The notes beneath the pieces were generated by a model. That model made no database searches and had not been told where the DNA came from. It was given only the letters and a program-made list of their open reading frames with translations. The translations under genes and the position numbers were made by a program. 64,000 nucleotides of DNA from an uncultured Bacilli bacterium (GTDB taxonomy: Bacteria > Bacillota_I > Bacilli_A > RF39 > UBA660): assembly GCA_947629935.1 (NCBI GenBank), contig CANRFQ010000001.1, positions 22,444 to 86,443 on the forward strand. Reading direction: 5' to 3'. Positions 3,938 to 60,818 of this stretch are shown piece by piece (the first letter of the stretch is position 1; every line of letters starts with the position of its first letter).

Positions 3938-4717
3938 TTATTTTTTTAAAACTTTAGAATAACCTATATCTAATAAATTAGTAAAATCATTAGGAATTTT
4001 TTCTCGTGCTTCTTTTATTAATTCATTAGGAATTCCATATAACGCCTCTGCCATTGAACCAACTATACAACCATTAGTATCTGTATCACCACCAAAAGAG
4101 ATAACTTTTAACAATGATTCTTCAAAGTTGTTTGAAATAAATAAGGCATATAAACAATTATCAATTGTTTTATAACAGGTTGTATTAAATCCATTAAAAT
4201 CAGAATAATTTAACTTTAAGTTTAATTCTTTTATTATTTCTTCTTTCGAAAAACCTAAACGTGCTAGAAAAATAATTAATGCAATAGTGGTGGCAGAATT
4301 TATTGCTTCTAAAGAATCGTGGGATGGAATAGTAGCCAAACGAGCATTATTAATTATATCTTTTTTGTTGTTAAACAAATAACCAACGGCAGAGATTCTC
4401 ATCATTGCCCCATTACCAATGCTTTTTCCATTTTTCTGATTCAATGCCCATTTTGTAAATCCAGGTGAAAAAATACCTTTGAAATAAGGTGAAAAATCAG
4501 GTTTATATATTAAAAAGTTTTTTGCGTATTTTTTCAAATAATACTCATAATTTTTATCATTTAAAATTGCATCCAAAATAGCTATAGTTAATATAGTATC
4601 ATCACTATAGAAACTTTTTTCATTAATCAGCTTTTTAGGATTTAATTTTGAAAAATATTTAGTTTGTTGATACTCATATATAGAACCTGCTAAATCTCCT
4701 ATGACTGCTCCCCACAT
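3938..4717 (-). CDS. ADP-ribosylglycohydrolase family protein (DraG-like)
   Basis: N-terminal GAVIGDLAGSIYEY and C-terminal GGDTDTNGCIVG motifs are typical of ADP-ribosyl hydrolases. RBS AGAGGT. Confidence 0.7.
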   Translation of the reverse strand: MWGAVIGDLAGSIYEYQQTKYFSKLNPKKLINEKSFYSDDTILTIAILDAILNDKNYEYYLKKYAKNFLIYKPDFSPYFKGIFSPGFTKWALNQKNGKSIGNGAMMRISAVGYLFNNKKDIINNARLATIPSHDSLEAINSATTIALIIFLARLGFSKEEIIKELNLKLNYSDFNGFNTTCYKTIDNCLYALFISNNFEESLLKVISFGGDTDTNGCIVGSMAEALYGIPNELIKEAREKIPNDFTNLLDIGYSKVLKK

Positions 4718-8692: not shown

Positions 8693-10045
8693 CTATTGTT
8701 CATCTATCTCAGCTGTTACAACTCCAACGAAGGTTCGCCCGGCATCAATATTTTGTTCAGTATTTGTTCCTTCTAGGACAAATGATAAGGTATAGCTTTG
8801 TGTAACATGCGCAGGAATAGTTATACTTCTTTGAATTACACCATTAGATTTAGGTACCGGCCTAAAATCCTGACTAATTCCTCCATTTGTTCCTGTAATT
8901 TTATATTTCAAATGATCTGTTTGAAAATCATTAGAAACATTGGTCCAAACTAAGCGATATTTTAAGTTATAATCAGATTCATTTCTAATAGTAAAATGTC
9001 TATCTTCAATATCTACATGGTCAGGCATATCATTAGGTAAGACATTTATACTTGGAGCTCCAGAGCCCGAATAAGCAATAACTAAATTAGCAGTGACAGT
9101 TACTTCTGAATCTGGTGACCCACCAGGAGTTGGTGATGATCCTTCAGTACTTGATGATGGTCCAGTAACTGATGATGGACCACTCTGTTTTGAAGAATCT
9201 ACGACTTCTTCTTTATTTTTTTCCGTTTCTAAACATCTTTCCGTACATTTTCCTATTCCTTGCGGATCGAGAAGAATATCAGGAATTCCATCTCCATCTA
9301 AATCAAGATTTAAATCCGGTTTACCATCCCTATCAATATCAATGTCAACATCCGCTTTGCCATCTCCATCTAGATCAACATTAGTATCAGGCCAGCCATT
9401 ACCATTAACATCACAGTTTAGACTACATGTTTTCCTTTTTTCTGGTGTTGTGGCATCATGAACAAGATTAAAATCCGCTTTGCCATCTTTATTTTTGTCT
9501 AAATTGAATACGGCTTTTCTATTACCTTTATAATCAATATTCAAATCCGGAATGTTATCTTTATTTATATCAATATTTATATCGTTCCTACCATCTTTAT
9601 TATTATCAATATTTAAATCCGAAATACCATCTTTATCGATATCTTTATTGAGATACCTTTTTTCAATGTAACTTAACGTTACATACATAGTTCCTATAGA
9701 TGTTGCTAAAAAAGTAGCTAAAAATAATAGCAACAAAACAAAACTTTTTTTACGACTTTCAAAACGAAAACTTAAAACATTACTATTTTTTTCGACAGCT
9801 AAATCTTTTGGTAAATACACAATTTGGTCATGCTCTTTATCAATAAGCTCTACACAACTCATAACCCAAGAATTCTTTATATCCGTATTAGGATAAGCAT
9901 CTTGTAATACAGATCTTACCATATCAAATTGTTCATTTTTTAATTCTTTTTTTAAATCATCAAGGTTAATGAATTTTTCTTTAAATTTTTTGTTTACAAA
10001 AATATTTTTATCTTCAGAACTTTTCATTTTATTTCCTACTTTCAT
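8693..10045 (-). CDS. Single-pass membrane protein with thrombospondin-type-3-like calcium-binding Asp repeats, a Ser/Pro/Gly-rich linker and a C-terminal beta-rich domain (a start at the second ATG, 10027, is likely)
   Basis: Repeated DxDxDGxxD units (NIDNNKDGRND, NLDKNKDGKAD, VDLDGDGKADVDIDIDRDGKPDLNLDLDGDGIPD). TM segment FVLLLLFLATFLATSIGTMYV. The GC-rich linker encodes SSKQSGPSSVTGPSSSTEGSSPTPGGSPDS. An RBS precedes the second ATG. Confidence 0.7.
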   Translation of the reverse strand: MKVGNKMKSSEDKNIFVNKKFKEKFINLDDLKKELKNEQFDMVRSVLQDAYPNTDIKNSWVMSCVELIDKEHDQIVYLPKDLAVEKNSNVLSFRFESRKKSFVLLLLFLATFLATSIGTMYVTLSYIEKRYLNKDIDKDGISDLNIDNNKDGRNDINIDINKDNIPDLNIDYKGNRKAVFNLDKNKDGKADFNLVHDATTPEKRKTCSLNCDVNGNGWPDTNVDLDGDGKADVDIDIDRDGKPDLNLDLDGDGIPDILLDPQGIGKCTERCLETEKNKEEVVDSSKQSGPSSVTGPSSSTEGSSPTPGGSPDSEVTVTANLVIAYSGSGAPSINVLPNDMPDHVDIEDRHFTIRNESDYNLKYRLVWTNVSNDFQTDHLKYKITGTNGGISQDFRPVPKSNGVIQRSITIPAHVTQSYTLSFVLEGTNTEQNIDAGRTFVGVVTAEIDEQ

Positions 10046-10127: not shown

Positions 10128-11654
10128 TTATACTATTCTTTCAAATAGAATTTTTGGTTCATTTAATTTATCTTTTGGTCTTAGACCATCAAAAGAATTT
10201 AGGGAAGCTAAATCATTTTTTGTCGTATTCAATTGATTAAATATATTCTGTGCTGTTTGTGGAATAAAAGGCTGTAATAAAACTGCACAAATACGAATAG
10301 ATTCTAAAAGATTGTATAATACTGTTCCCAATCTTGTTTTTTTATTTTCATCTTTCGCTAAAGTCCACGGTGTCACTTCATCAATATATTTATTACATTT
10401 TCTTAATACATTAAATATTTCATCAATGCTTTCACCAATTCTAAGTTCTTCCATCTTTTGAGCAACTACATCTTTTAAAGCTAGTGCACTATTAATTAAA
10501 TCATTATCAATATCTTCTTTTGCAACTGGTTTTTGAATTATACCATCAAAATATTTATAAGCCATCGATATAGTCCTATTTACTAAATTTCCTAAAATAT
10601 TAGCTAAATCCGAATTATGTCTTTCCACAATTAATTCATCGGTTATATTGCCATCAGCGGCGTAAGGTATTTCATGTAAAACATAATATCTAATAGTATC
10701 TAAACCGTATTTTTGAACTAAATCATCAGCATACATAATATTACCTTTAGACTTACTCATTTTGTCATTGCCAAATAATAACCATGGATGACCAAATACT
10801 TGTTTTGGTAAAGGTAAATCTAAAGCCATTAAAATAATTGGCCAATAAATAGTATGGAAACGAACAATATCTTTTCCTATTAAATGTAAGTCAGCTGGCC
10901 ATAATTTTTGAAATTCCGGATGAGAATTATCAACTTCATAACCAATATTAGTTATATAGTTTGATAAAGCATCAATCCAAACATATACAATATGTTTATC
11001 ATCGAAAGTAACAGGTATTCCCCATTTAAAAGAAGTACGCGAAACACATAAATCTTGTAAACCAGGGCGCAAAAAATTATTAATCATTTCATTTTTACGA
11101 GCTTCCGGTTTAATAAATTCCGGATGAGATTCTATATATTCTATTAAACGGTCTTGATATTTAGACAAGCGCAAAAAATAAGCTTCTTCACTAGTTTCAT
11201 GAACTTCTCGCCCGCAATCCGGACACTTACCATCTATAAGTTGAGATTCTGTCCAAAAAGATTCACAAGGAGTACAATATAATCCCGTATATTCCCCTTT
11301 ATAAATATCCCCTTGATCGTATAATTTTTTAAAAATATCTTGGACTTTTCTTTCATGCTCTTTATCTGTAGTTCTAACAAACTTATCATATGTCGTATCC
11401 ATAATATCCCAGATTTTTTTAATTTCACCCGCGATATTATCAACATATTCTTGGGGAGTTATCCCACATTCTTTCGCTTTTTGTTCAATTTTTTCCCCAT
11501 GTTCATCAGTTCCTGTTTGAAAATAAACATCATAACCACAAAGTCTTTTATAACGGGCAATAGCATCCGCCAAAACAATTTCATAAGTATTGCCAATATG
11601 AGGTTTTGCTGAAGTATAAGCAATTGCTGTTGATATATAATATTTTTCTTTCAT
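10128..11654 (-). CDS. metG: Methionyl-tRNA synthetase (short form lacking the C-terminal tRNA-binding domain)
   Basis: HIGN (PHIGNTYE) and KMSKS (DKMSKSKGN) class I motifs plus a CPDC zinc knuckle. RBS AGGAGAAAG. Confidence 0.9.
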   Translation of the reverse strand: MKEKYYISTAIAYTSAKPHIGNTYEIVLADAIARYKRLCGYDVYFQTGTDEHGEKIEQKAKECGITPQEYVDNIAGEIKKIWDIMDTTYDKFVRTTDKEHERKVQDIFKKLYDQGDIYKGEYTGLYCTPCESFWTESQLIDGKCPDCGREVHETSEEAYFLRLSKYQDRLIEYIESHPEFIKPEARKNEMINNFLRPGLQDLCVSRTSFKWGIPVTFDDKHIVYVWIDALSNYITNIGYEVDNSHPEFQKLWPADLHLIGKDIVRFHTIYWPIILMALDLPLPKQVFGHPWLLFGNDKMSKSKGNIMYADDLVQKYGLDTIRYYVLHEIPYAADGNITDELIVERHNSDLANILGNLVNRTISMAYKYFDGIIQKPVAKEDIDNDLINSALALKDVVAQKMEELRIGESIDEIFNVLRKCNKYIDEVTPWTLAKDENKKTRLGTVLYNLLESIRICAVLLQPFIPQTAQNIFNQLNTTKNDLASLNSFDGLRPKDKLNEPKILFERIV

Positions 11655-16515: not shown

Positions 16516-16542
16516 TTAGCACTCTATCTTGACAAGTGCTAA
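16516..16542 (+). promoter_or_regulatory. CIRCE operator (HrcA binding site) TTAGCACTC-N9-AAGTGCTAA upstream of clpB
   Basis: 17/18 match to the CIRCE consensus TTAGCACTC-N9-GAGTGCTAA. It overlaps the -35 TTGACA of the clpB promoter. Confidence 0.8.
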
Positions 16543-16579: not shown

Positions 16580-18685
16580 ATGTATAATCAAAATCCAAAT
16601 CAAGAAGAAAATGTTTTAGAAAAGTATGGACGTAATATTGTTGATGGCGTCAAAAATGGGAAAAATGATCCCGTTATTGGTCGTGATGAAGAAATTCGTA
16701 ATATAACTCGTATTTTGTCTCGTAAAACGAAAAACAACCCCGTTTTAATCGGCGACCCTGGCGTTGGAAAAACTGCTATTGTAGAAGGTCTAGCGCAAAG
16801 AATAGTTAAAGGTGATGTACCTGATTCTTTAAAAAATAAAACTATTTGGGAACTTGACATGGGTGCCTTAATTGCGGGAGCTAAGTATCGTGGTGAATTC
16901 GAAGAAAGATTAAAAGCCGTTTTAAAAAAGATTAAAGAATCAGATGGCGAAATAATTATGTTCATCGATGAAATTCACATGATTGTCGGAGCAGGCGCTT
17001 TAGAAGGTGCAATGGATGCCGGTAATATGTTAAAACCGATGCTAGCACGTGGAGAAATTCATTGTATTGGAGCGACGACACTCAATGAATATCGAAAATA
17101 TATTGAAAAAGATGGCGCCTTAGAAAGACGTTTTCAAAAGATTTTAGTTTCCGAACCAAATGTTGAAGATACAATTACTATTTTACGTGGTTTAAAATCT
17201 CGTTTTGAAGTTTATCATGGTGTTACTATTAAAGATAAAGCCTTAGTCGCTGCTGCTTCTTTATCTGATCGTTATATAACTAATCGTTATCTTCCCGATA
17301 AAGCTATCGATTTAGTTGATGAGGCTTGTGCTACTATTAAAGTGCAAATGGAATCTGTCCCTGTTGATTTAGATGTTTTAACCAAAAAAATTATGCAACT
17401 CCAAATCGAACGCGAGGCTTTAAAAAAAGAAAAAGACGAATTATCTAAAAATCGTTTAAGTGAACTTGATGAAGAAATTGCTAAATTACAAGAAAAAGAA
17501 ACGAAACTTCGCGAAGAATGGAATAATGAAAAAAATCTCAGTACTAATATTAATAAGAAAAAAGAAGAACTAGAAAAAGCTAGCCAAGAATTGGAAATCG
17601 CTGAAAGTACTTACGATCTTGAAAAAGCTGCTAAATTAAGACATGGAACTATTCCAAAATTACAAGAAGAATTGGATAAACTCAAAGAAAGTTCCCAAAG
17701 TAAAATTTTAAGTGATGTGGTCGATGATGAATCTATTGCTGCTATTATTTCTAAATGGACCAATATTCCTATCAGCAAATTAGTTAGTGGCGAAAAAGAG
17801 AAACTAATTAATTTACAAACAAACTTAGAAAAACGCGTTAAAGGTCAAGATCAAGCCTTAAAATTAGTAAGCGAAGCCATCATAAGAGCGCGTAGTGGTA
17901 TTAAAGATCCTAATCGTCCTATTGGTTCCTTTATCTTTTTAGGTCCAACAGGCGTAGGAAAAACCGAAGTAGCTCGCAGTCTAGCCTATGAGCTATTTGA
18001 TGATGAACGGCATATGATTCGTATTGATATGAGTGAATACATGGAAGCTCATAGTGTTTCCCGTTTAGTCGGAGCGCCTCCTGGATATATCGGTTATGAT
18101 GAAGGTGGCCAACTAACAGAAGCCGTCCGCCGAAATCCTTATAGCATAGTTTTATTTGACGAAATTGAAAAAGCTCATAAAGATGTTTTTAATATTCTTT
18201 TACAAATTTTGGATGATGGTCGAATTACTGATTCGCAAGGCCGAACTGTTGATTTTAAAAATACTATTATAATTATGACATCTAATTTAGGAAGCGAATA
18301 TATTTTAGAGGCTAAAGAAAATGCTAATGAATTAATTGATATGCAATTACGTCAAACATTTAAACCAGAGTTTATAAATCGAATAGATGAAATAATTATC
18401 TTTAATAGTTTATCTAAAGAAGTAGTTTATAGTATTTTAGACAAAATAATTAAGGATATTGAATCTCGCTTAAGTGATAAACGTTTAAAATTAGAATTAA
18501 CTCAAGAAGCTAAAGATTACATTATAAATTCAGCTTACGATGAACGATATGGAGCTCGTCCCATCAAACGTTTTGTCGCTCGGAATATCGAAACATTAAT
18601 AGCCCAAAATATCATATTAGATAAAATTAAATTTAACTCTACTATTACAATAGACTACCAAAATGCTAATTTAATTGTAAAATAA
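16580..18685 (+). CDS. clpB: ClpB disaggregase chaperone, naturally lacking the N-terminal domain (701 aa; Mollicutes-like architecture)
   Basis: Two AAA+ modules (GDPGVGKT and GPTGVGKT Walker A) and a long coiled-coil M-domain between them. It starts at the region equivalent to ClpB residue ~150. A CIRCE lies upstream. Confidence 0.9.
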
Positions 18686-20920: not shown

Positions 20921-21240
20921 ATTTATCCCATCCTAAAATCATTGTACTGAATTTCTTTTAAAAAAATTGTTGATTTTAGGATAATTTAAACAGTTATTTA
21001 ACAACATAAGGATCTTGCTCAGTTCCACACTTTTATACCAGCACCTGCAAACTAGTATCAGCCTATATAAATTTTCATGTAGCCGAAAAATTCGTCAGAA
21101 TTTGACGAACGATTTTAATTTAGCTTTATTGTTTAGCTTTTTATAATATTTACTCGAGTGCTATCTGGGGCATCTACCATTTTACATCTTGATAAAACAT
21201 AATCCTATGGGGTTTTGGTTTATAAGGAAGTGGATGTGTT

Positions 21241-21312
21241 ATGAGAAAACTTTTAGATATACCAAAAATGATTATCATTATAAAAATTTTAAATATCCTA
21301 AAAGATATTTAA
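21241..21312 (+). CDS. Conserved 23-codon ORF inside the repeat (MRKLLDIPKMIIIIKILNILKDI); coding status uncertain
   Basis: RBS AAGGAAGTGGA lies 6-9 nt upstream. The reading frame is intact in both copies (copy 2: MKKLLVYLKVIIIIKILNILEDI), but 7 nonsynonymous versus 2 synonymous differences. Confidence 0.25.
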   Translation: MRKLLDIPKMIIIIKILNILKDI

Positions 21313-21397
21313 AATAAAATGACGCCCGTTAGAAAGAGTAATCTTTTTAACATGGCGTCTGCAACAAAAGTGTAGATGCTATTCATTTAGCACTTAC
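21310..21397 (-). ncRNA. Candidate ~85-nt small RNA: consensus promoter (-35 TTGTAA 21427-21432, 17 bp, -10 TATAAT 21404-21409) to intrinsic terminator (GACGCC/GGCGUC outer stem, 10-bp inner stem with GUAA-type loop, U-run)
   Basis: Promoter and first 28 transcribed nt are 100% identical in both copies. The terminator's outer stem is conserved while its inner stem and loop differ by compensatory changes (copy 1 gttagaaaga/tctttttaac; copy 2 acttaa/ttaagt). Confidence 0.35.
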
Positions 21398-21909
21398 ATT
21401 TTTATTATATACTTTCTTTTTTTATTTTACAATTATTTTTTACATTTACTTTTTGTTTCTTCTGTTTAAAATCAAAGTTCTATGCATATTATCATCATTA
21501 ATATTATCTAAATTTTGATTTTTGATAGTTGTAGGTGTTTTAAGGAGATTGCTTAAATGTTCTGATACTACAAATCTAAAAGGATCCCATTCATCAAAAG
21601 TATTAGCATAATCAGTTAAACACTCATGACAGTTTTTAAATGTATGACATCTCCAAGCTGCACTTCCAATCATATCGCCCGGAGCACATACTCCCAATTT
21701 TTTCCATTTGATTATTTTTTCTTCCGGTGTTATTTTTCCTCTTCTATGAATTGCATCTATTTCTTCTTGACTTCAGGGTTTAAATTTTACTGTTGTTACT
21801 TCTTTTATTATTGCCTTCTTTCTATAAAAATATTATATACTATGTATATGATAAAGAAAATATTTTTACATTTTCCTACCAAACATATTTAAAAATTTTG
21901 CATAAAATC

Positions 21910-22683
21910 TCATTTCAAAAATAACTCATTTAAAGAACTGGCTATAATATCACTCAATTTATTTATTTCTTCTTCAATATTTAAAGAACTATACATTCTT
22001 TTATTAATATCGATTACTACAGGTACCCCTATAGATATTAATGGAATATTAAAAGTTTTAAAACTAATTTTTCTATTTGTTTTAATGGCACTGCCAGGAA
22101 TAATTCCTGTATCCGAAATTTCAATACATCTATTTAAGTTCTTGGGATTATTAGTAGCCAAAGAATCAATAACTATAATAGAGCTTGGTTTTAAAGAATT
22201 TACTAACATTTTAATTAGAGCAAAAGAACTTATTCCCGTTTTCCCAATAACTTCCGGAACAAATAAAGCTACTTTGGGAATAGTTAAAAAATCTACATAT
22301 TGATTAGTCGCTATTACTTTATTAGTCGTCTTTGGTCCTAATGAATCACATAAAATACTGGAGTTACCGAGTCCAATAATTAACGTAGTACCATAGTTAG
22401 GAATCGCCTTTTTAAAATGTCTTAAAACTTTTATTATTTCTTTTTTTATTGTTTTAGGATAGTTGTTTAAAACATTATCTTTAAAACAAATAGTAAAATA
22501 TTGCCCAACATCTCTTTTTAAATATTTTTTCTTTTCCTCATCGACTGCAAAGAAGGATGTTTTAATATCATTTTTAATGCTTTCTTCTAATTTATAACCG
22601 TTATTTTTAAATGTCGATTCTGCTAAATCTAAAAAAAGTTTATTTTTCATAATCTCACCAATATTATTTTGGCCGGAAAGCAC
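21910..22683 (-). CDS. gpr: GPR/YyaC-family spore germination protease (peptidase A25); probable start at internal ATG 22650
   Basis: LIIGLGN...LGP and ISDTGIIPGS motifs correspond to the conserved GPR segments (VGLGNWNVTPDALGP, ISDTGIHPGS). It is shorter than Bacillus GPR (C-terminal ~100 aa absent). Confidence 0.6.
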   Translation of the reverse strand: MLSGQNNIGEIMKNKLFLDLAESTFKNNGYKLEESIKNDIKTSFFAVDEEKKKYLKRDVGQYFTICFKDNVLNNYPKTIKKEIIKVLRHFKKAIPNYGTTLIIGLGNSSILCDSLGPKTTNKVIATNQYVDFLTIPKVALFVPEVIGKTGISSFALIKMLVNSLKPSSIIVIDSLATNNPKNLNRCIEISDTGIIPGSAIKTNRKISFKTFNIPLISIGVPVVIDINKRMYSSLNIEEEINKLSDIIASSLNELFLK

Positions 22684-57433: not shown

Positions 57434-57656
57434 ATTGTCCTCCACAACAATATATGTGAGAAGAAAAATATTTATGCTCTTCATTTGATTTTTAAAGTAT
57501 TAAAAAATCGTCAGAATTTGACGAACGATTTTAATTTATTTTTATTGTCTAGCTTTTTATAATATTTACTCGAGTGCTATCTGGGGCATCTACCATTTTA
57601 CATCTGGGTAAAGCATAATCCTATGGGGTTTTGGTTTATAAGGAAGTGGATGTGTT

Positions 57657-57728
57657 ATGAAAAAGCTATTAGTTTATCTAAAAGTGATTATCATTATAAA
57701 AATTTTAAATATCCTAGAAGATATTTAA
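57657..57728 (+). CDS. Conserved 23-codon ORF, copy 2 (MKKLLVYLKVIIIIKILNILEDI); coding status uncertain
   Basis: Identical RBS context to copy 1. The frame is preserved. Confidence 0.2.
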   Translation: MKKLLVYLKVIIIIKILNILEDI

Positions 57729-57812
57729 ATTAAAATGACGCCCACTTAAGAAGTGATTTTTAAGTATGGCGTCTACAAAAAACAACGTAGATGCTATTCA
57801 TTTAGCACTTAC
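57726..57812 (-). ncRNA. Candidate small RNA, copy 2 (promoter -35 57842-57847, -10 57819-57824; terminator 57735-57774)
   Basis: Same architecture as copy 1. The terminator loop carries compensatory substitutions. Confidence 0.35.
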
Positions 57813-57867
57813 ATTTTTATTATATACTTTCCTTTTTTATTTTACAACTCAAATCTGACAATTTCTT

Positions 57868-58998
57868 TTATAAATATTTTTTATATTCTCTAAACTCAGA
57901 GCTATTTTCTAAATCCGTATCAGCGAGTTCTTTAAATAATTTCTTCTGATTTCTATCAAGTTTTGTGGGAATAATAATTTTAGTTACCACAAACATATCT
58001 CCTTTTTTCAAAGAGTTTGGCACTTTTATACCTTTACCGCGTAGTTTTAGTTTAGCACCATTTTGTGTACCTTCTTTAATTTCTAAAATAACATTGCCAT
58101 AAATCGTTGGTATTTCTTTTTTACAACCAAGAGCTGCTTCGGTTATAGTAAGAGGAAGTTCAAAATAAATATCTTCTTCATCTCTTTCAAAAATAGGATG
58201 ATCTTTGACATTAAACTCGATATAAATATCACCATTAGGACCACCATTATAACCAGCTGATCCTTTGCCAGAAATTCTAATTTTATTACCAGTATCTACT
58301 CCTTCTGGTACCTTAACAACTATTTCTTTATTTTTAGTTATATGGCCTTTACCACGACAAGCACTACATGTTGTTTTAAAAGTTTTGCCAGTGCCATTAC
58401 AGTCAGGACAAGTACTTTCGGATTGAAAGACACCAAACATAGTTTGTTGTTGTTGAATTACTCGGCCTCGACCTCCACAAGTAGAACAAGTAGATTCGTC
58501 AAAGCCACCTTTACCATCACATTTATCACATTTTTCATCTAAATCTAATTTTAAGGACTTTTCACAACCAAATACGGCTTCTTCAAAAGTTAAGTTCATT
58601 CGAATTAAAGAGTCTTGACCTTTAACGGGACGATTTTTCCGATTTGAACGACCGCCAAAACCACCAAAGCCACCAAAAGCTCCTCCAAATAAATCCCCAA
58701 AAATGGAACTTAAATCTATATCGTCGGTACTAAATCCGGAAAAGCCACCAAAACCACCCCCGGCATTAGGGTCAAAAGCCACATGACCAAATTGATCATA
58801 TTGACGACGTTTTTCAGGGTCCGATAAAATAGCATAAGCTTCCCCTATTTCTTTAAACTTTTCTTCCGCTCCTGGTTCTTTATTAACATCGGGATGGTAT
58901 TGTTTGGCTAGTTTACGAAATGAACGTTTTATTTCATCTTCAGTCGCATTTTTAGAAACACCTAAGACCTCATAATAGTCTCTTTTATTACTGTTCAT
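57868..58998 (-). CDS. dnaJ: Chaperone DnaJ
   Basis: J-domain with HPD (YHPDVN), a Gly-rich linker, and four CxxCxGxG zinc-finger repeats. 376 aa. Confidence 0.9.
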
Positions 58999-59009
58999 AT
59001 TTAAAACCT

Positions 59010-60818
59010 CTATTCTTTATACAATTTTTTTAAATCTAAAACCAAGCCATCAAAATAGTTAAAGGTGTCTTCAATAGTTTCAGTTTTACTCATATCTACT
59101 CCCACTACTTTTAGAGATTCAATTGGGGTTTTAGTTTGACCAAGTTTCAAAAATTCTAGATATTTTTGAACAATGTCTTTATCACCACTTAATATTTTCA
59201 TAGCAATATTAATAGCTGCGGCGTAAGCTGTAGCATATTGATAAACATAAAAATTCATATAAAAGTGAGGAATTCTTTCCCATTCATATTTTATGATATC
59301 ATCCACTACGATATTTTTTCCGTAATATTCCTTATTCAAATTATAATAAATATCACACAAGCTACTATAAGTTAAAGTTTGACCACTTTGATCTTTTTCA
59401 TGAATAATTTTTTCAAATTCCGCAAACATCGTTTGGCGATATATGGATGCTTTAAAATCTTGGATTAAATCATCTAGTAAATATTTCTTTTCATTTATGT
59501 CTTTCGTATGAGCAATTAAATATTTACTAAGTAAAATTTGATTTACTTGACTAGCTACTTCGGCCACAAATATCGAATATTCATAATCCTGAAAAGCTTG
59601 ATTTTTAATAGCATAATAATAATGCATAGCATGACCTAATTCATGAGCTAAAGTTGACACACTATATAAAGAACCATCAAAACTTAATAAAACATAAGGA
59701 TGGGCATTATAACATACTGTACAATAGGCGCCATTTCTTTTCCCTTTATTAGGACAAAAATCAATCCATCTTTCTGTAAAGGCCTTATTTAAGTCATTAA
59801 TGTAAGTGTCCCCTAAAACATGCAAAGCTTTATTAAGTAATTCTTTAGCGTCCGTTTCGGTATATTTTTTCTTAACCTGTTTAACAATTGGAGCATACGT
59901 ATCATAAATGTGAAGACTTGATAAATGTAAGGCCTCCTTTTTTAAGTGCCAATATTTAGATAATGGAGAAATATTATTTTTTACGGTTTTTATTAAATTA
60001 TCATATATTTCATCAGGAATGTCATTATTATATAAAGAACAATTTAAAGCACTCTTATAACCTCTTATATCAGCTAATCTATTATTTTTATTAACTTCAG
60101 CCATTAATAAAGAAGCATAAGTATTTTTGAAATTACTATAAGTTTCATGCAACTTTTTAAAAGCATTCTTTCTTAATTTTCTATCATTAGATTCTAAAAA
60201 TTTACGATAATTTTGCTCGGATAATTCGATTTTTTGACCTTTTTCATCTTTAATTGAACCAAATGTTAAATCTGCATCAGTTAAAAGTGAATAAACATCA
60301 TCAACTGTTCGAAAAGTACTAGAAACACTAGATAATAGTTTTTCTTCTTTATCACTTAAAATGTATTTTTTTACTTTAAATATATCTTTTAAATTGCGAG
60401 CAAATTCTTGAAGACCATTTTCTTCGGCAATGTATTTCAAGATTAAATCATAATCGTTGCTTAATAGTTCAGGCCCAATATAAGCAGATTCTCTTTTTAC
60501 TTTTTCATAAAGTTTTAAAACTTTACCCATTAGTTCTTGATAAAAAGTATTAGTCGTATCTTGATCATTTTGTAAATGAGCATAAACATATACTTGTTCT
60601 AATTTTTGTTCAAAATCCCTATCAAACTTTAATAAAGCCAGTAAAGATTTCGAACTATCTAAAATGTGTCCTTCATATTTTTTATATTCTTCCACTTGGG
60701 TATCTAAATAATTATAGTCTTCATAAAAATCTTCGATTGTATTATATAAATCTTTAACATTCCATTTTAAATTATCTGCAAACTCTTCTCTTTTTTTTGC
60801 CACTTTCTTTTCCTCCAT
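59010..60818 (-). CDS. pepF: Oligoendopeptidase F (M3B family), located between dnaK and dnaJ
   Basis: HELGHAMH zinc motif. 602 aa. Typical M3B length. Confidence 0.85.

What the first reader, a model, noticed from the sequence alone, without database searches (positions are those of the whole stretch)
57503..57847. Second copy of the element abuts the hrcA-grpE-dnaK-pepF-dnaJ operon end and appears to supply its only terminator
Between the dnaJ stop (57868) and the element there is no hairpin. The first intrinsic terminator downstream of dnaJ is the element's GACGCC stem (57735-57774). The element's consensus promoter (57819-57847) fires in the same direction 20 nt after dnaJ. Heat-shock operon read-through would therefore run into, or compete with, the sRNA promoter. 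Copy 1 has the same relationship to the gpr-family gene. This operon-end placement, together with the CIRCE-like half-sites inside the element, makes a regulatory link to the heat-shock or sporulation regulons plausible but unproven.
Basis: partly seen in the sequence, partly recalled or inferred. Interest (0 to 1): 0.5.

Follow-up and report, generated by a model that had tools for sequence, protein, structure and literature searches.

The report
Inserted small-RNA module now terminates dnaJ
A 346-bp two-copy element carrying its own promoter and two terminators replaced the natural terminator after dnaJ in some strains of an uncultured rabbit-gut bacterium, so it now ends the heat-shock operon; this looks like an accident of insertion, not a heat-shock control device.

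Summary
dnaJ stops at 57868 and 20 unstructured nt follow. Then comes a near-consensus minus-strand promoter (57847-57819), and the first strong hairpin with a U-tract is the GACGCC stem (57737-57773).

Comparative data explain this. Relatives with 83-90% identical DnaJ lack the element and have a canonical terminator directly after the dnaJ stop. A strain with 99% identical DnaJ and SpoIIP lacks the element at both sites. The element is therefore a recent, strain-variable replacement at two recombination hot spots, and each time it removed the resident terminator.

Copy 1 abuts a degenerate 119-aa gene, not gpr. The "CIRCE-like half-sites" are 8/9 matches at chance frequency, 222 nt apart and in everted order. 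A genuine CIRCE lies upstream of clpB.

The duplicated unit runs exactly from the -35 box to a second terminator (57524-57502). It has no match in Rfam, Pfam, NCBIfam, phage or plasmid collections.

My best reading (about 0.4) is a type I toxin-antitoxin-like pair. An ~86-nt antisense sRNA would oppose a highly structured plus-strand RNA carrying a 23-codon ORF with a sequestered Shine-Dalgarno. The coding evidence is weak.

Rivals are a minus-strand C-rich sRNA and a cwpV-like invertible terminator switch. Interest is modest.

The parts
57868..58998 (-). dnaJ, last gene of the hrcA-grpE-dnaK-pepF-dnaJ operon. Its stop codon is at 57868-57870.
   Evidence: ORF list and translation. 100% match to DnaJ cluster P0001 with DnaJ Pfam domains.
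57848..57867 (-). 20-nt unstructured spacer between the dnaJ stop and the element. The same junction is found in every strain that carries copy 2.
   Evidence: Fold -5.9 kcal/mol, z -0.35. Junction conserved in L001, L135, L140 and L142.
57819..57847 (-). Near-consensus sigma-70-type promoter TTGTAA-17-TATAAT. It forms the right-hand boundary of the duplicated unit. Predicted transcription start is about 57812.
   Evidence: 10/12 match. Invariant except for two spacer positions across 6 copies. Copy 1 equivalent at 21432..21404.
57787..57809 (-). S1, the 5' hairpin of the predicted sRNA (AGUGCUA-aaugaaua-GCAUCUAC). It is one arm of a split inverted repeat with S2 and contains the 8/9 CIRCE half-site match.
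   Evidence: Invariant in all copies.
57724..57773 (-). T1: the GACGCC...GGGCGUC hairpin (57737-57773) plus the U-tract AUUUUAAUUU. It is the first terminator downstream of dnaJ and the terminator of the ~86-nt sRNA. It works in one direction only.
   Evidence: -15.9 kcal/mol, z -4.7. Two interior haplotypes differ, with 4 base pairs changed on both sides and the pairing kept.
57704..57729 (.). Perfect 10-bp-arm palindrome TTTAAATATC-N6-GATATTTAAA. It overlaps the end of the small ORF. Function unknown.
   Evidence: repeat I8. Predicted as a hairpin on both strands.
57657..57728 (+). 23-codon ORF MKKLLVYLKVIIIIKILNILEDI, the candidate toxin or micropeptide. It is open in 6/6 copies but is the most variable segment of the element.
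   Evidence: Non-synonymous to synonymous changes 8:4 and no codon-position bias (read from the alignment). GRAVY 1.45, in the top ~10% of short ORFs.
57640..57650 (+). Shine-Dalgarno-like AAGGAAGUGGA, 6 nt upstream of the AUG. In the predicted plus-strand fold it is fully paired with 57594-57605. On the minus strand the same bases read as the CU-rich motif UCCACUUCCUU.
   Evidence: Sequence. Folds. Invariant in 6 copies.
57573..57593 (.). S2 (plus strand AGUGCUA-ucuggg-GCAUCUAC), complementary to S1 across 193 bp. It could be an RNA closing helix or a DNA inverted repeat. It contains the other 8/9 CIRCE half-site match.
   Evidence: A split inverted repeat this GC-rich arose in 3 of 5000 simulated sequences.
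57535..57563 (+). Candidate weak plus-strand promoter: TTTATT-17-TATAAT. The -10 box and the 12 nt after it are invariant. The -35 box is poor and is not conserved in copy 1.
   Evidence: Sequence and alignment. Not reported by the scanner.
57502..57524 (-). T2: TCGTCAaauucUGACGA plus U6, the left-hand boundary of the duplicated unit. It backs up T1 as a terminator before the P-type ATPase gene. It also resembles a terminator on the plus strand.
   Evidence: the only terminator the scanner calls. (-7.6 kcal/mol). Copy 1 equivalent at 21091-21109.
21086..21432 (-). Copy 1 of the element, with the same parts: promoter 21404-21432, T1 21321-21359, ORF 21241-21312 (+), T2 21091-21109. It lies 13 nt after a degenerate 119-aa gene and 165 nt before spoIIP.
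20975..21060 (-). Remnant of the 3' end of a ~515-aa gene that occupies this site in other strains (...EQDPYVVK*). It shows that copy 1 arose by replacement, not by simple insertion.
   Evidence: Alignment with L131, L003 and L129. BLAST breakpoints.

Best explanation
The 346-bp element is a self-contained, strain-variable transcription module. It was placed by replacement recombination immediately after two stop codons: dnaJ, and a 119-aa gene upstream of spoIIP. Each time it removed the resident terminator.

Shown: at the dnaJ site the operon has no terminator of its own. Operon transcripts must run through the element's promoter and end at T1 (57737-57773) or, failing that, at T2 (57524-57502). 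They therefore carry the sRNA sequence as a 3' UTR.

Inferred: the module works like a type I toxin-antitoxin pair with 3' overlap.
- The near-consensus promoter makes an ~86-nt sRNA (about 57812 to about 57727) consisting of the S1 hairpin plus T1.
- A weak plus-strand promoter (-10 at 57558-57563) makes a ~245-nt RNA that carries a 23-codon ORF.
- In that RNA the Shine-Dalgarno is buried in a G.U-rich hairpin, and the 5' end (S2) pairs with the 3' end (the complement of S1).
- The sRNA is perfectly complementary to the last ~86 nt of that RNA. Pairing would open the 5'-3' helix, create an RNase III substrate, and free CAUCUAC (57587-57593) to hold the SD region GUGGAUG. The result would be repressed translation and triggered decay.

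The link to heat shock is a by-product of where the module landed. Confidence is about 0.85 for the insertion and terminator-donation part and about 0.4 for the type I-like mechanism.
For: Insertion and terminator donation:
- Relatives with 83-90% identical DnaJ lack the element and have canonical terminators directly after the dnaJ stop. In L127 dnaJ is followed by the same ATPase gene after 79 nt.
- In L129 the 120-aa gene has its own terminator, and homology to the window breaks exactly at that hairpin, where the element starts.
- Same-species contigs lack copy 1 (L131-L134 and L143). L139 lacks copy 2 from the same junction.
- There is no structure between dnaJ and T1.

Module anatomy:
- The duplicated unit runs from the -35 box to the T2 U-tract.
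- The promoter scores 10/12.
- T1 keeps its pairing through 4 double-sided changes between haplotypes.
- The S1/S2 complementarity is unlikely by chance (3/5000).

Type I-like features:
- An ORF with a strong SD is intact in 6/6 copies.
- The plus-strand RNA 57568-57812 folds at -72.6 kcal/mol, z -7.1, with the SD and AUG paired and the 5' and 3' ends paired. The plus-strand consensus fold is -82.8 against -63.0 kcal/mol for the minus strand.
- The most conserved blocks are the sRNA promoter plus S1, and the plus-strand -10 box through the start codon.
- Convergent 3'-overlapping pairs in which antitoxin binding extends SD sequestration are documented for bsrG/SR4 (PMC3834814).
Against: - The ORF body is the most variable part of the element. 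Changes are 8 non-synonymous to 4 synonymous and fall 5/5/4 across codon positions, and they include V>D and L>P in copy 1. There is no coding signature.
- The peptide is 23 aa, shorter than the 28-60 aa quoted for Bacillus and Clostridioides type I toxins (PMC6563280). It has no uncharged stretch long enough for a transmembrane helix. Its hydropathy is only in the top ~10% of mechanical short ORFs.
- The plus-strand promoter is weak (3/6 in the -35 box, not conserved in copy 1) and was not called by the scanner.
- No clean plus-strand terminator exists. There is only the closing helix or S1' hairpin followed by a U-rich tract.
- All canonical signals (promoter, T1, T2) and the unit boundaries fit a purely minus-strand unit.
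- There is no homology to any known toxin, antitoxin or RNA family.
- Only 7 closely related copies were available, so covariation cannot identify the strand.
- No expression data were available.
Confidence: 0.4

Rival explanations
1. A minus-strand-only RNA gene. The consensus promoter makes a short RNA ending at T1 and, by read-through of a leaky T1, a ~310-nt RNA ending at T2. S1 and S2 close the long form. Its invariant core presents four C-rich or CU-rich unpaired motifs (UCCACUUCCUU, AACCCCAUA, UACCCAG, GCCCCAG) that would pair with Shine-Dalgarno regions of target mRNAs, as RsaE/RoxS-type sRNAs of Firmicutes do. On this reading the plus-strand ORF and SD are accidental mirror images.
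For: - The promoter, T1 and T2 all act on the minus strand, and the duplicated unit is exactly -35 box to T2 U-tract.
- The C-rich motifs fall in loops of the minus-strand consensus fold.
- The core is invariant while the 'ORF' region is the most variable and shows no coding signature.
- The T1 U-tract is interrupted and the scanner did not call it, so read-through is plausible.
- The minus-strand fold of 57500-57812 has z -4.9.
Against: - T1 is a strong hairpin (-15.9 to -18.4 kcal/mol) that would stop most transcripts 130 nt or more before the core.
- No good internal promoter exists.
- The core alone is not structured on either strand (z about -1).
- There is no Rfam match, RsaE included.
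- The plus strand folds better overall.
Confidence: 0.25
2. A cwpV-type invertible terminator switch. S1 and S2 are the inverted repeats of a 193-bp segment flipped by a recombinase encoded elsewhere. In the orientation seen (OFF), the outside promoter makes only a short RNA stopped by T1. After inversion T1 loses its U-tract. The 23-codon ORF with its SD then becomes sense to the strong promoter, and the transcript ends at T2. The result would be a phase-variable micropeptide gene.
For: - The geometry matches the cwpV switch: imperfect 21-bp inverted repeats 195 bp apart, promoter outside, and an OFF-orientation terminator 60-70 nt from the start (PMC2784873). Here the repeats are 21-23 bp imperfect and 193 bp apart, the promoter is outside, and T1 ends about 75-85 nt from the start.
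- T1 is strictly unidirectional.
- The ORF and SD lie inside the repeats on the opposite strand.
- T2 and the unit boundaries are explained.
- The inverted repeat is unlikely by chance.
Against: - All 7 observed copies are in the same orientation.
- The repeat arms are only 7 and 8 bp, with unequal, unrelated centres of 8 and 6 nt.
- No recombinase was found among the 20 window ORFs scanned.
- Contig breaks inside S1 are explained by the two-copy repeat: L138 ends at element position 46, which is variable position 16 plus k=31.
- The ORF shows no coding constraint.
Confidence: 0.12
3. One reading: the element is functionally tied to the heat-shock (HrcA/CIRCE) or sporulation regulons, and its operon-end position and CIRCE-like half-sites reflect that.
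For: - Both half-site matches are 8/9, and the right half AAGTGCTAA is identical to the right half of the genuine clpB CIRCE.
- dnaJ read-through must carry the sRNA sequence, so its level would rise on heat shock (inference).
Against: - The half-sites are 222 nt apart and everted, and such matches occur at chance frequency.
- No 27-nt CIRCE match with up to 3 mismatches lies in the element.
- The element is absent from these sites in relatives and in some same-species strains.
- Copy 1 follows an unrelated degenerate gene.
Confidence: 0.05
4. An inert or decaying leftover of a larger mobile or variable cassette, with no present function. Its promoter and terminators are fossils.
For: - It is restricted to one species-level lineage, with two copies.
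- It sits in hot spots that carry other cargo in other strains.
- L140 has a copy truncated inside T2.
- Copy 1 carries clustered changes.
Against: - Two blocks of about 70 and 100 nt are almost invariant across copies, while neighbouring genes differ by 3-5%.
- Compensatory changes keep T1 paired.
- The promoter is near consensus in every copy.
Confidence: 0.1

Closest known systems
bsrG/SR4 and txpA/RatA type I toxin-antitoxin systems of Bacillus subtilis (convergent, 3'-overlapping)
   Same: A small ORF with an SD lies on one strand. A strongly promoted antisense sRNA on the other strand overlaps the 3' part of the ORF's mRNA. The SD is sequestered in mRNA structure, and sRNA binding can plausibly extend that sequestration (PMC3834814). 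The module is chromosomal, sits in variable regions and is multi-copy.
   Different: No sequence or profile similarity. The peptide is 23 aa against 28-60 aa and has no clear transmembrane segment or coding signature. The toxin promoter and terminator are weak or unclear. Nothing has been tested experimentally.
Long-range 5'-3' pairing in toxin mRNAs (hok/Sok fold-back inhibition; AapA1/IsoA1 of Helicobacter) - recalled from my own knowledge, not checked here
   Same: The predicted plus-strand RNA is closed by a 5'-3' helix (S2 with the complement of S1), and its translation start region is buried.
   Different: Those systems use 5'-overlapping antitoxins and 3' processing for activation. Here the sRNA overlaps the 3' end.
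cwpV invertible terminator switch of Clostridioides difficile (PMC2784873)
   Same: The promoter lies outside a ~195-bp segment flanked by ~21-bp imperfect inverted repeats. An intrinsic terminator exists in one orientation only, shortly after the transcription start.
   Different: No inverted copy has been seen and no recombinase was identified. The repeats have short arms with dissimilar centres. A second terminator follows the segment, so only the internal micro-ORF could be switched, not a downstream gene.
C-rich seed sRNAs of Firmicutes (RsaE/RoxS type) - recalled from my own knowledge
   Same: Several unpaired C-rich motifs on the minus-strand RNA, in a 28% GC genome.
   Different: No Rfam hit. 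The RNA would be about three times longer and sits behind a strong terminator.
CIRCE operator of HrcA
   Same: Two 8/9 matches to the half-site sequence.
   Different: The order is everted and the spacing is 222 nt instead of 9. Such matches occur at chance frequency. It is not a CIRCE.

Membership tests
Intrinsic (Rho-independent) terminator serving dnaJ | Stable GC-containing stem-loop on the transcribed strand | tested here: met
   T1 at 57737-57773: -15.9 kcal/mol, z -4.7. The copy 1 version is -18.4 kcal/mol.
Intrinsic (Rho-independent) terminator serving dnaJ | U-tract directly 3' of the stem | tested here: inconclusive
   The tail AUUUUAAUUU has 7 U in 10 but is interrupted, and the scanner did not call it. 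T2 has a clean U6 and was called.
Intrinsic (Rho-independent) terminator serving dnaJ | No other terminator between the stop codon and this hairpin | tested here: met
   57808-57900 on the minus strand is unstructured. No scanner hit. Relatives have a terminator there.
Type I toxin-antitoxin system | Small (<60 aa) hydrophobic protein with a potential transmembrane domain and a charged C-terminus (PMC6563280) | tested here: inconclusive
   The 23-aa ORF is intact in 6/6 copies with GRAVY 1.45. Lysines interrupt every hydrophobic run, the non-synonymous to synonymous ratio is 8:4, and the ORF is the most variable segment.
Type I toxin-antitoxin system | Cis-encoded antisense sRNA with its own promoter overlapping the toxin mRNA | tested here: inconclusive
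   The promoter (10/12), S1 hairpin and T1 predict an ~86-nt RNA antisense to the region 3' of the ORF. Overlap depends on an unproven plus-strand transcript reaching 57810.
Type I toxin-antitoxin system | Toxin mRNA structure that sequesters the ribosome binding site | tested here: met
   In silico only. The SD at 57640-57650 and the AUG are paired in the minimum-energy, centroid and consensus folds, z -7.1.
Type I toxin-antitoxin system | Homology to a described toxin or antitoxin family | tested here: not met
   No hit in Pfam or NCBIfam at E<=10. No Rfam hit.
Type I toxin-antitoxin system | Toxicity on over-expression, neutralised by the sRNA | not testable with these tools
   Needs an experiment.
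CIRCE/HrcA operator | Inverted repeat TTAGCACTC-N9-GAGTGCTAA | tested here: not met
   The only match in the window with up to 3 mismatches is 16516-16542, upstream of clpB. The element has only separated, everted 8/9 half-sites.
MITE / insertion sequence | Terminal inverted repeats and target-site duplication | tested here: not met
   The ends (TTGTAAAATAAAA... and ...GACGATTTTTT) are not inverted repeats, and the flanks share no duplication. No transposase was found in the ORFs scanned. Copy 1 is a replacement that left a gene remnant.
Invertible DNA switch (cwpV type) | Inverted repeats flanking the segment, promoter outside, orientation-specific terminator | tested here: met
   S1 and S2 form a 7+8 bp split inverted repeat 193 bp apart. 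The promoter is outside. T1 has U-tracts only on the minus strand.
Invertible DNA switch (cwpV type) | Both orientations present in populations or assemblies | tested here: not met
   All 7 of 7 copies are in one orientation. Read-level data were not available.
Invertible DNA switch (cwpV type) | Cognate site-specific recombinase | tested here: inconclusive
   None among the 30 window proteins scanned. A recombinase acting in trans could lie elsewhere in the genome.
Any Rfam family | Covariance-model match | tested here: not met
   Only a tRNA reaches gathering threshold in the window. In the element every hit with E<=10 is far below threshold.

The most novel reading that the evidence does not exclude
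The element is a self-contained phase-variable micro-gene. A cwpV-like DNA inversion between S1 and S2 would swap a unidirectional terminator for a 23-codon ORF behind a constitutive consensus promoter. The whole switch (promoter, inverted repeats, cargo and final terminator) would fit in 346 bp and would be copied between hot spots.
Probability: 0.12. Interest if true: 0.6.

Novelty: new member of a known kind. Interest (0 to 1): 0.3.

Why it matters
If the reading is right, it shows how a small, transcriptionally insulated RNA module can overwrite the terminator of a core stress operon and become its 3' end. The operon's read-through would then be fused to an sRNA sequence.

It also adds an orphan candidate sRNA or type I-like module from an uncultured, AT-rich gut Bacilli lineage in which no such systems are described.

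For genome annotation, the practical lesson is that operon-end position and half-site resemblance to CIRCE do not by themselves indicate membership of the heat-shock regulon.

Tried and rejected
- Rfam at gathering threshold on the window and at E<=10 on the element gave nothing relevant.
- Distant blastn against plasmids and phages gave no match.
- Three pattern scans of viral contigs gave no match.
- The genome-collection scan found only one close relative MAG (Lapin-008__bin8, two copies) plus one match that is presumably chance (L002, Verrucomicrobiota; no BLAST similarity to the element).
- The metagenome scan was wasted. None resembles the element.
- Exact look-ups of two ORFs that a gene caller could have called inside the element (36 and 46 aa) found nothing on record.
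- An nhmmer profile of the 6 copies, run against all 140+ held loci, found no diverged copies.
- Pfam and NCBIfam searches of the peptides gave nothing.
- I tried to tell the strand from G.U against A.C patterns. The plus strand keeps more one-sided changes (about 12 kept, 4 broken) than the minus strand (4 kept, 5 broken). In the hairpins shared by both strands the count is only about 5-6 against 3, so this is not decisive.
- The core region alone is not significantly structured on either strand.
- A direct-repeat, par/Fst-like complementarity between the sRNA and codons 3-8 (12/14 pairs, counted by eye from the sequence, not by a tool) is lost in 2 of 6 copies. I did not rely on it.
- Contig ends inside S1 (L137, L138) looked like possible inversion breakpoints. 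L138's end fits a k=31 break caused by the second copy. L137's end at position 56 is not explained by any known variant.
- I rejected a leader-peptide or attenuator reading of the IIII run, because no plus-strand gene lies downstream.
- I rejected a riboswitch for the ATPase gene or spoIIP, because T2 intervenes, the two downstream genes are unrelated, and the element is absent in relatives.
Full report
**Context.** The window has 28% GC. It comes from an uncultured, spore-forming Bacilli lineage of the rabbit gut. The only species-representative genome that matches is 'uncultured Bacilli bacterium Lapin-008__bin8', at 95-97% DNA identity. All genes around the finding are on the minus strand: hrcA, grpE, dnaK, pepF, dnaJ (57868-58998), and then a P-type cation ATPase whose true start is about 57433.

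**Checking the observation.**
- The element exists in two copies, 57502-57847 and 21086-21432, 90-93% identical.
- Read on the minus strand, copy 2 begins 20 nt after the dnaJ stop with TTGTAA-17-TATAAT (57847..57819).
- From the last 30 nt of dnaJ to the predicted start (about 57812) there is no structure (-5.9 kcal/mol, z -0.35).
- The first strong hairpin is GACGCC...GGGCGUC at 57737-57773 (-15.9 kcal/mol, z -4.7). It is followed by AUUUUAAUUU on the minus strand and by UACAAAAAAC on the plus strand. It can therefore terminate only in the dnaJ direction.
- The simple scanner does not call this hairpin, because the stem is bulged and the U-tract interrupted. It calls only the element's second terminator, TCGTCAaauucUGACGA+U6 at 57524-57508.
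- Either way the first terminator after dnaJ is supplied by the element.

**Two corrections.**
- Copy 1 does not abut gpr (21910-22683). A 119-aa gene lies between them. It is intact in L003 (3432-3791). In the window it has ATA in place of the start codon and an in-frame TGA. The element starts 13 nt after that gene's stop.
- The 'CIRCE-like half-sites' are 8/9 matches at 57572-57580 and 57802-57810. One-mismatch half-site matches occur 13 times in the window against 10.6 expected. The two sites are 222 nt apart and in everted order.
- The only CIRCE in the window with up to 3 mismatches is TTAGCACTCtatcttgacAAGTGCTAA at 16516-16542, upstream of a clpB-like gene.

**Comparative evidence at the dnaJ site.** I took DnaJ homologues along an identity gradient and fetched their contigs.
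- At 90%, 86% and 83% identity (L124/L125, L126, L127) the operon including pepF is conserved but the element is absent. dnaJ is followed at once by a canonical terminator: GCGATGATaactaATCATCG+U6; a 14-bp hairpin plus U-tract; and ATTATAGCaaUGCUAUAAU+U9.
- In L127 the same ATPase gene follows after 79 nt. Its leader aligns with the window sequence just downstream of the element.
- Strains with 98-99% identical DnaJ carry the element at the identical junction (L001, L135/L136, L140, L142).
- L139 (99%) diverges from the same junction, within 2 nt, into an unrelated sequence.

**Comparative evidence at the spoIIP site.**
- The site holds a 515-578-aa gene with no Pfam match in relatives (L128-L130). 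It does so even in contigs 96% identical in DNA with 99% identical SpoIIP (L131-L134, L143).
- The window and L003 keep only the last ~50-130 nt of that gene, downstream of the element.
- In L129 the 120-aa gene has its own terminator, AACACUAAauuaUUAGUGUU+U6. Homology to the window breaks exactly where that hairpin begins and the element starts.
- L139 and L143 come from one MAG (GCA_947628495.1), which lacks the element at both sites.

**What this means for the finding.** The element is a recent, strain-variable replacement at two hot spots, and each time the resident terminator was lost. This explains 'operon-end placement' without any regulatory link.

**What the element is not.**
- It has no terminal inverted repeats or target duplication.
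- It has no similarity to plasmids, phages or viral contigs.
- It has no Rfam match.

**Anatomy.** The duplicated unit runs exactly from the -35 box to the U-tract of T2. Across six full copies conservation is uneven.
- Promoter plus S1 (72 nt): 2 variable positions.
- 57560-57660 (100 nt): 4 variable positions.
- T1 interior: two haplotypes that differ at many positions but keep pairing (4 pairs changed on both sides).
- 57660-57690: the most variable stretch.
- Variants are shuffled among copies, which indicates recombination or gene conversion between them.

S1 (57787-57809) and S2 (57573-57593) are complementary in two blocks of 7 and 8 bp, 193 bp apart. A split repeat this GC-rich arose in 3 of 5000 composition-matched simulations. 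The GC criterion was chosen after seeing the data.

**Mechanism, best reading.** On the plus strand a 23-codon ORF (57657-57728, MKKLLVYLKVIIIIKILNILEDI) follows a strong SD (AAGGAAGUGGA, 57640-57650). It is open in all six copies.
- A plus-strand RNA from just after an invariant TATAAT (57558-57563) to the complement of S1 folds at -72.6 kcal/mol (z -7.1). Its SD and AUG are buried in a G.U-rich hairpin, and its 5' end is paired to its 3' end.
- The plus-strand consensus fold is -82.8 against -63.0 kcal/mol for the minus strand.
- The ~86-nt minus-strand RNA (S1 hairpin plus T1) would be fully complementary to the 3' part of that RNA.
- This is the layout of 3'-overlapping type I toxin-antitoxin pairs such as bsrG/SR4, where antitoxin binding also extends SD sequestration (PMC3834814). 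General features of these systems are reviewed in PMC6563280.

I put this mechanism at about 0.4 because the coding evidence is weak.
- The ORF shows 8 non-synonymous against 4 synonymous changes, with no codon-position bias.
- It is the least conserved part of the element.
- It is shorter than described toxins and lacks a clean transmembrane stretch.
- Its hydropathy is only in the top ~10% of short mechanical ORFs.
- The plus-strand promoter and terminator are weak.

**Rivals.**
- (a) A minus-strand-only RNA. The invariant core shows four C-rich motifs in loops, and all canonical signals are on the minus strand. However, T1 stands in front of the core, and the core alone is unstructured.
- (b) A cwpV-like invertible terminator switch. 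The geometry is strikingly similar to the published switch: 21-bp imperfect repeats, 195 bp, promoter outside, OFF terminator 60-70 nt from the start (PMC2784873). It would also explain T2 and the antisense ORF. Against it, all seven copies seen have one orientation, the repeat arms are short with different centres, and no recombinase was found in the window.
- (d) An inert remnant, which is unlikely given the invariant blocks and the compensatory changes.

**Consequence for dnaJ (inference).** Operon transcripts read through the sRNA promoter and end at T1 or T2. They therefore carry the sRNA sequence as a 3' UTR. During heat shock this could raise the amount of sRNA-sense RNA and occlude the sRNA promoter. 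That is an accidental coupling, testable by 3' end mapping.

**Verdict.** The element is an orphan, lineage-restricted small-RNA module, probably a new member of a known kind. Interest is modest (0.3).

Noticed in passing
window 59010-60818 (minus); L001 3741-5324; L135 2215-3993; L139 1465-3270: The pepF gene inside the dnaK operon is only 29-36% identical in protein to the pepF at the same position in strains whose DnaJ is 98-99% identical. In L139 it is 98.5% identical. At least three very divergent pepF alleles appear to have been swapped within one species.
   Followed up: partly
window 16516-16542: A genuine CIRCE operator (TTAGCACTCtatcttgacAAGTGCTAA, 1 mismatch) lies upstream of a clpB-like AAA+ gene (16580-18685, +). 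This suggests HrcA control of clpB in this organism.
   Followed up: partly
L124 about 11150-11255; L126 about 11190-11260; L129 about 4200-4290: In relatives, both sites that hold the element in the window carry paralogous genes of unknown function (515-578 aa, no Pfam match). Their promoters have a G9 run between a TTTACA or TTGACA box and TATAAT, which looks like slipped-strand phase variation. The window itself has no G or C run of 7 or more.
   Followed up: partly
window 21446-21830 (minus); L003 3432-3791: The 119-aa cysteine-rich gene between gpr and copy 1 (no Pfam or NCBIfam match) is degenerate in the window: ATA replaces the start codon and there is an in-frame TGA at codon 12. It is intact in the relative.
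   Followed up: partly
L139 4415-4503; L140 2125-2418: There are more alternative states of the dnaJ-downstream hot spot. L139 has an unrelated sequence with two palindromes starting from the same junction. L140 has the element truncated inside T2, followed by a different gene for a membrane-anchored protein instead of the ATPase.
   Followed up: no
window 9260-9649 (within minus-strand ORF 8693-10045): A repeat family with copies spaced at multiples of 36 nt (7 copies, 63-71% identical to the reference copy) lies inside a 450-aa ORF. It probably encodes a 12-residue repeat protein.
   Followed up: no
window 57704-57729 and 21288-21313: A perfect 10-bp-arm palindrome (TTTAAATATC-N6-GATATTTAAA) lies inside the element and overlaps the stop codon of the small ORF. 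It could be a protein-binding site. Its function is not explained by any of the models.
   Followed up: no
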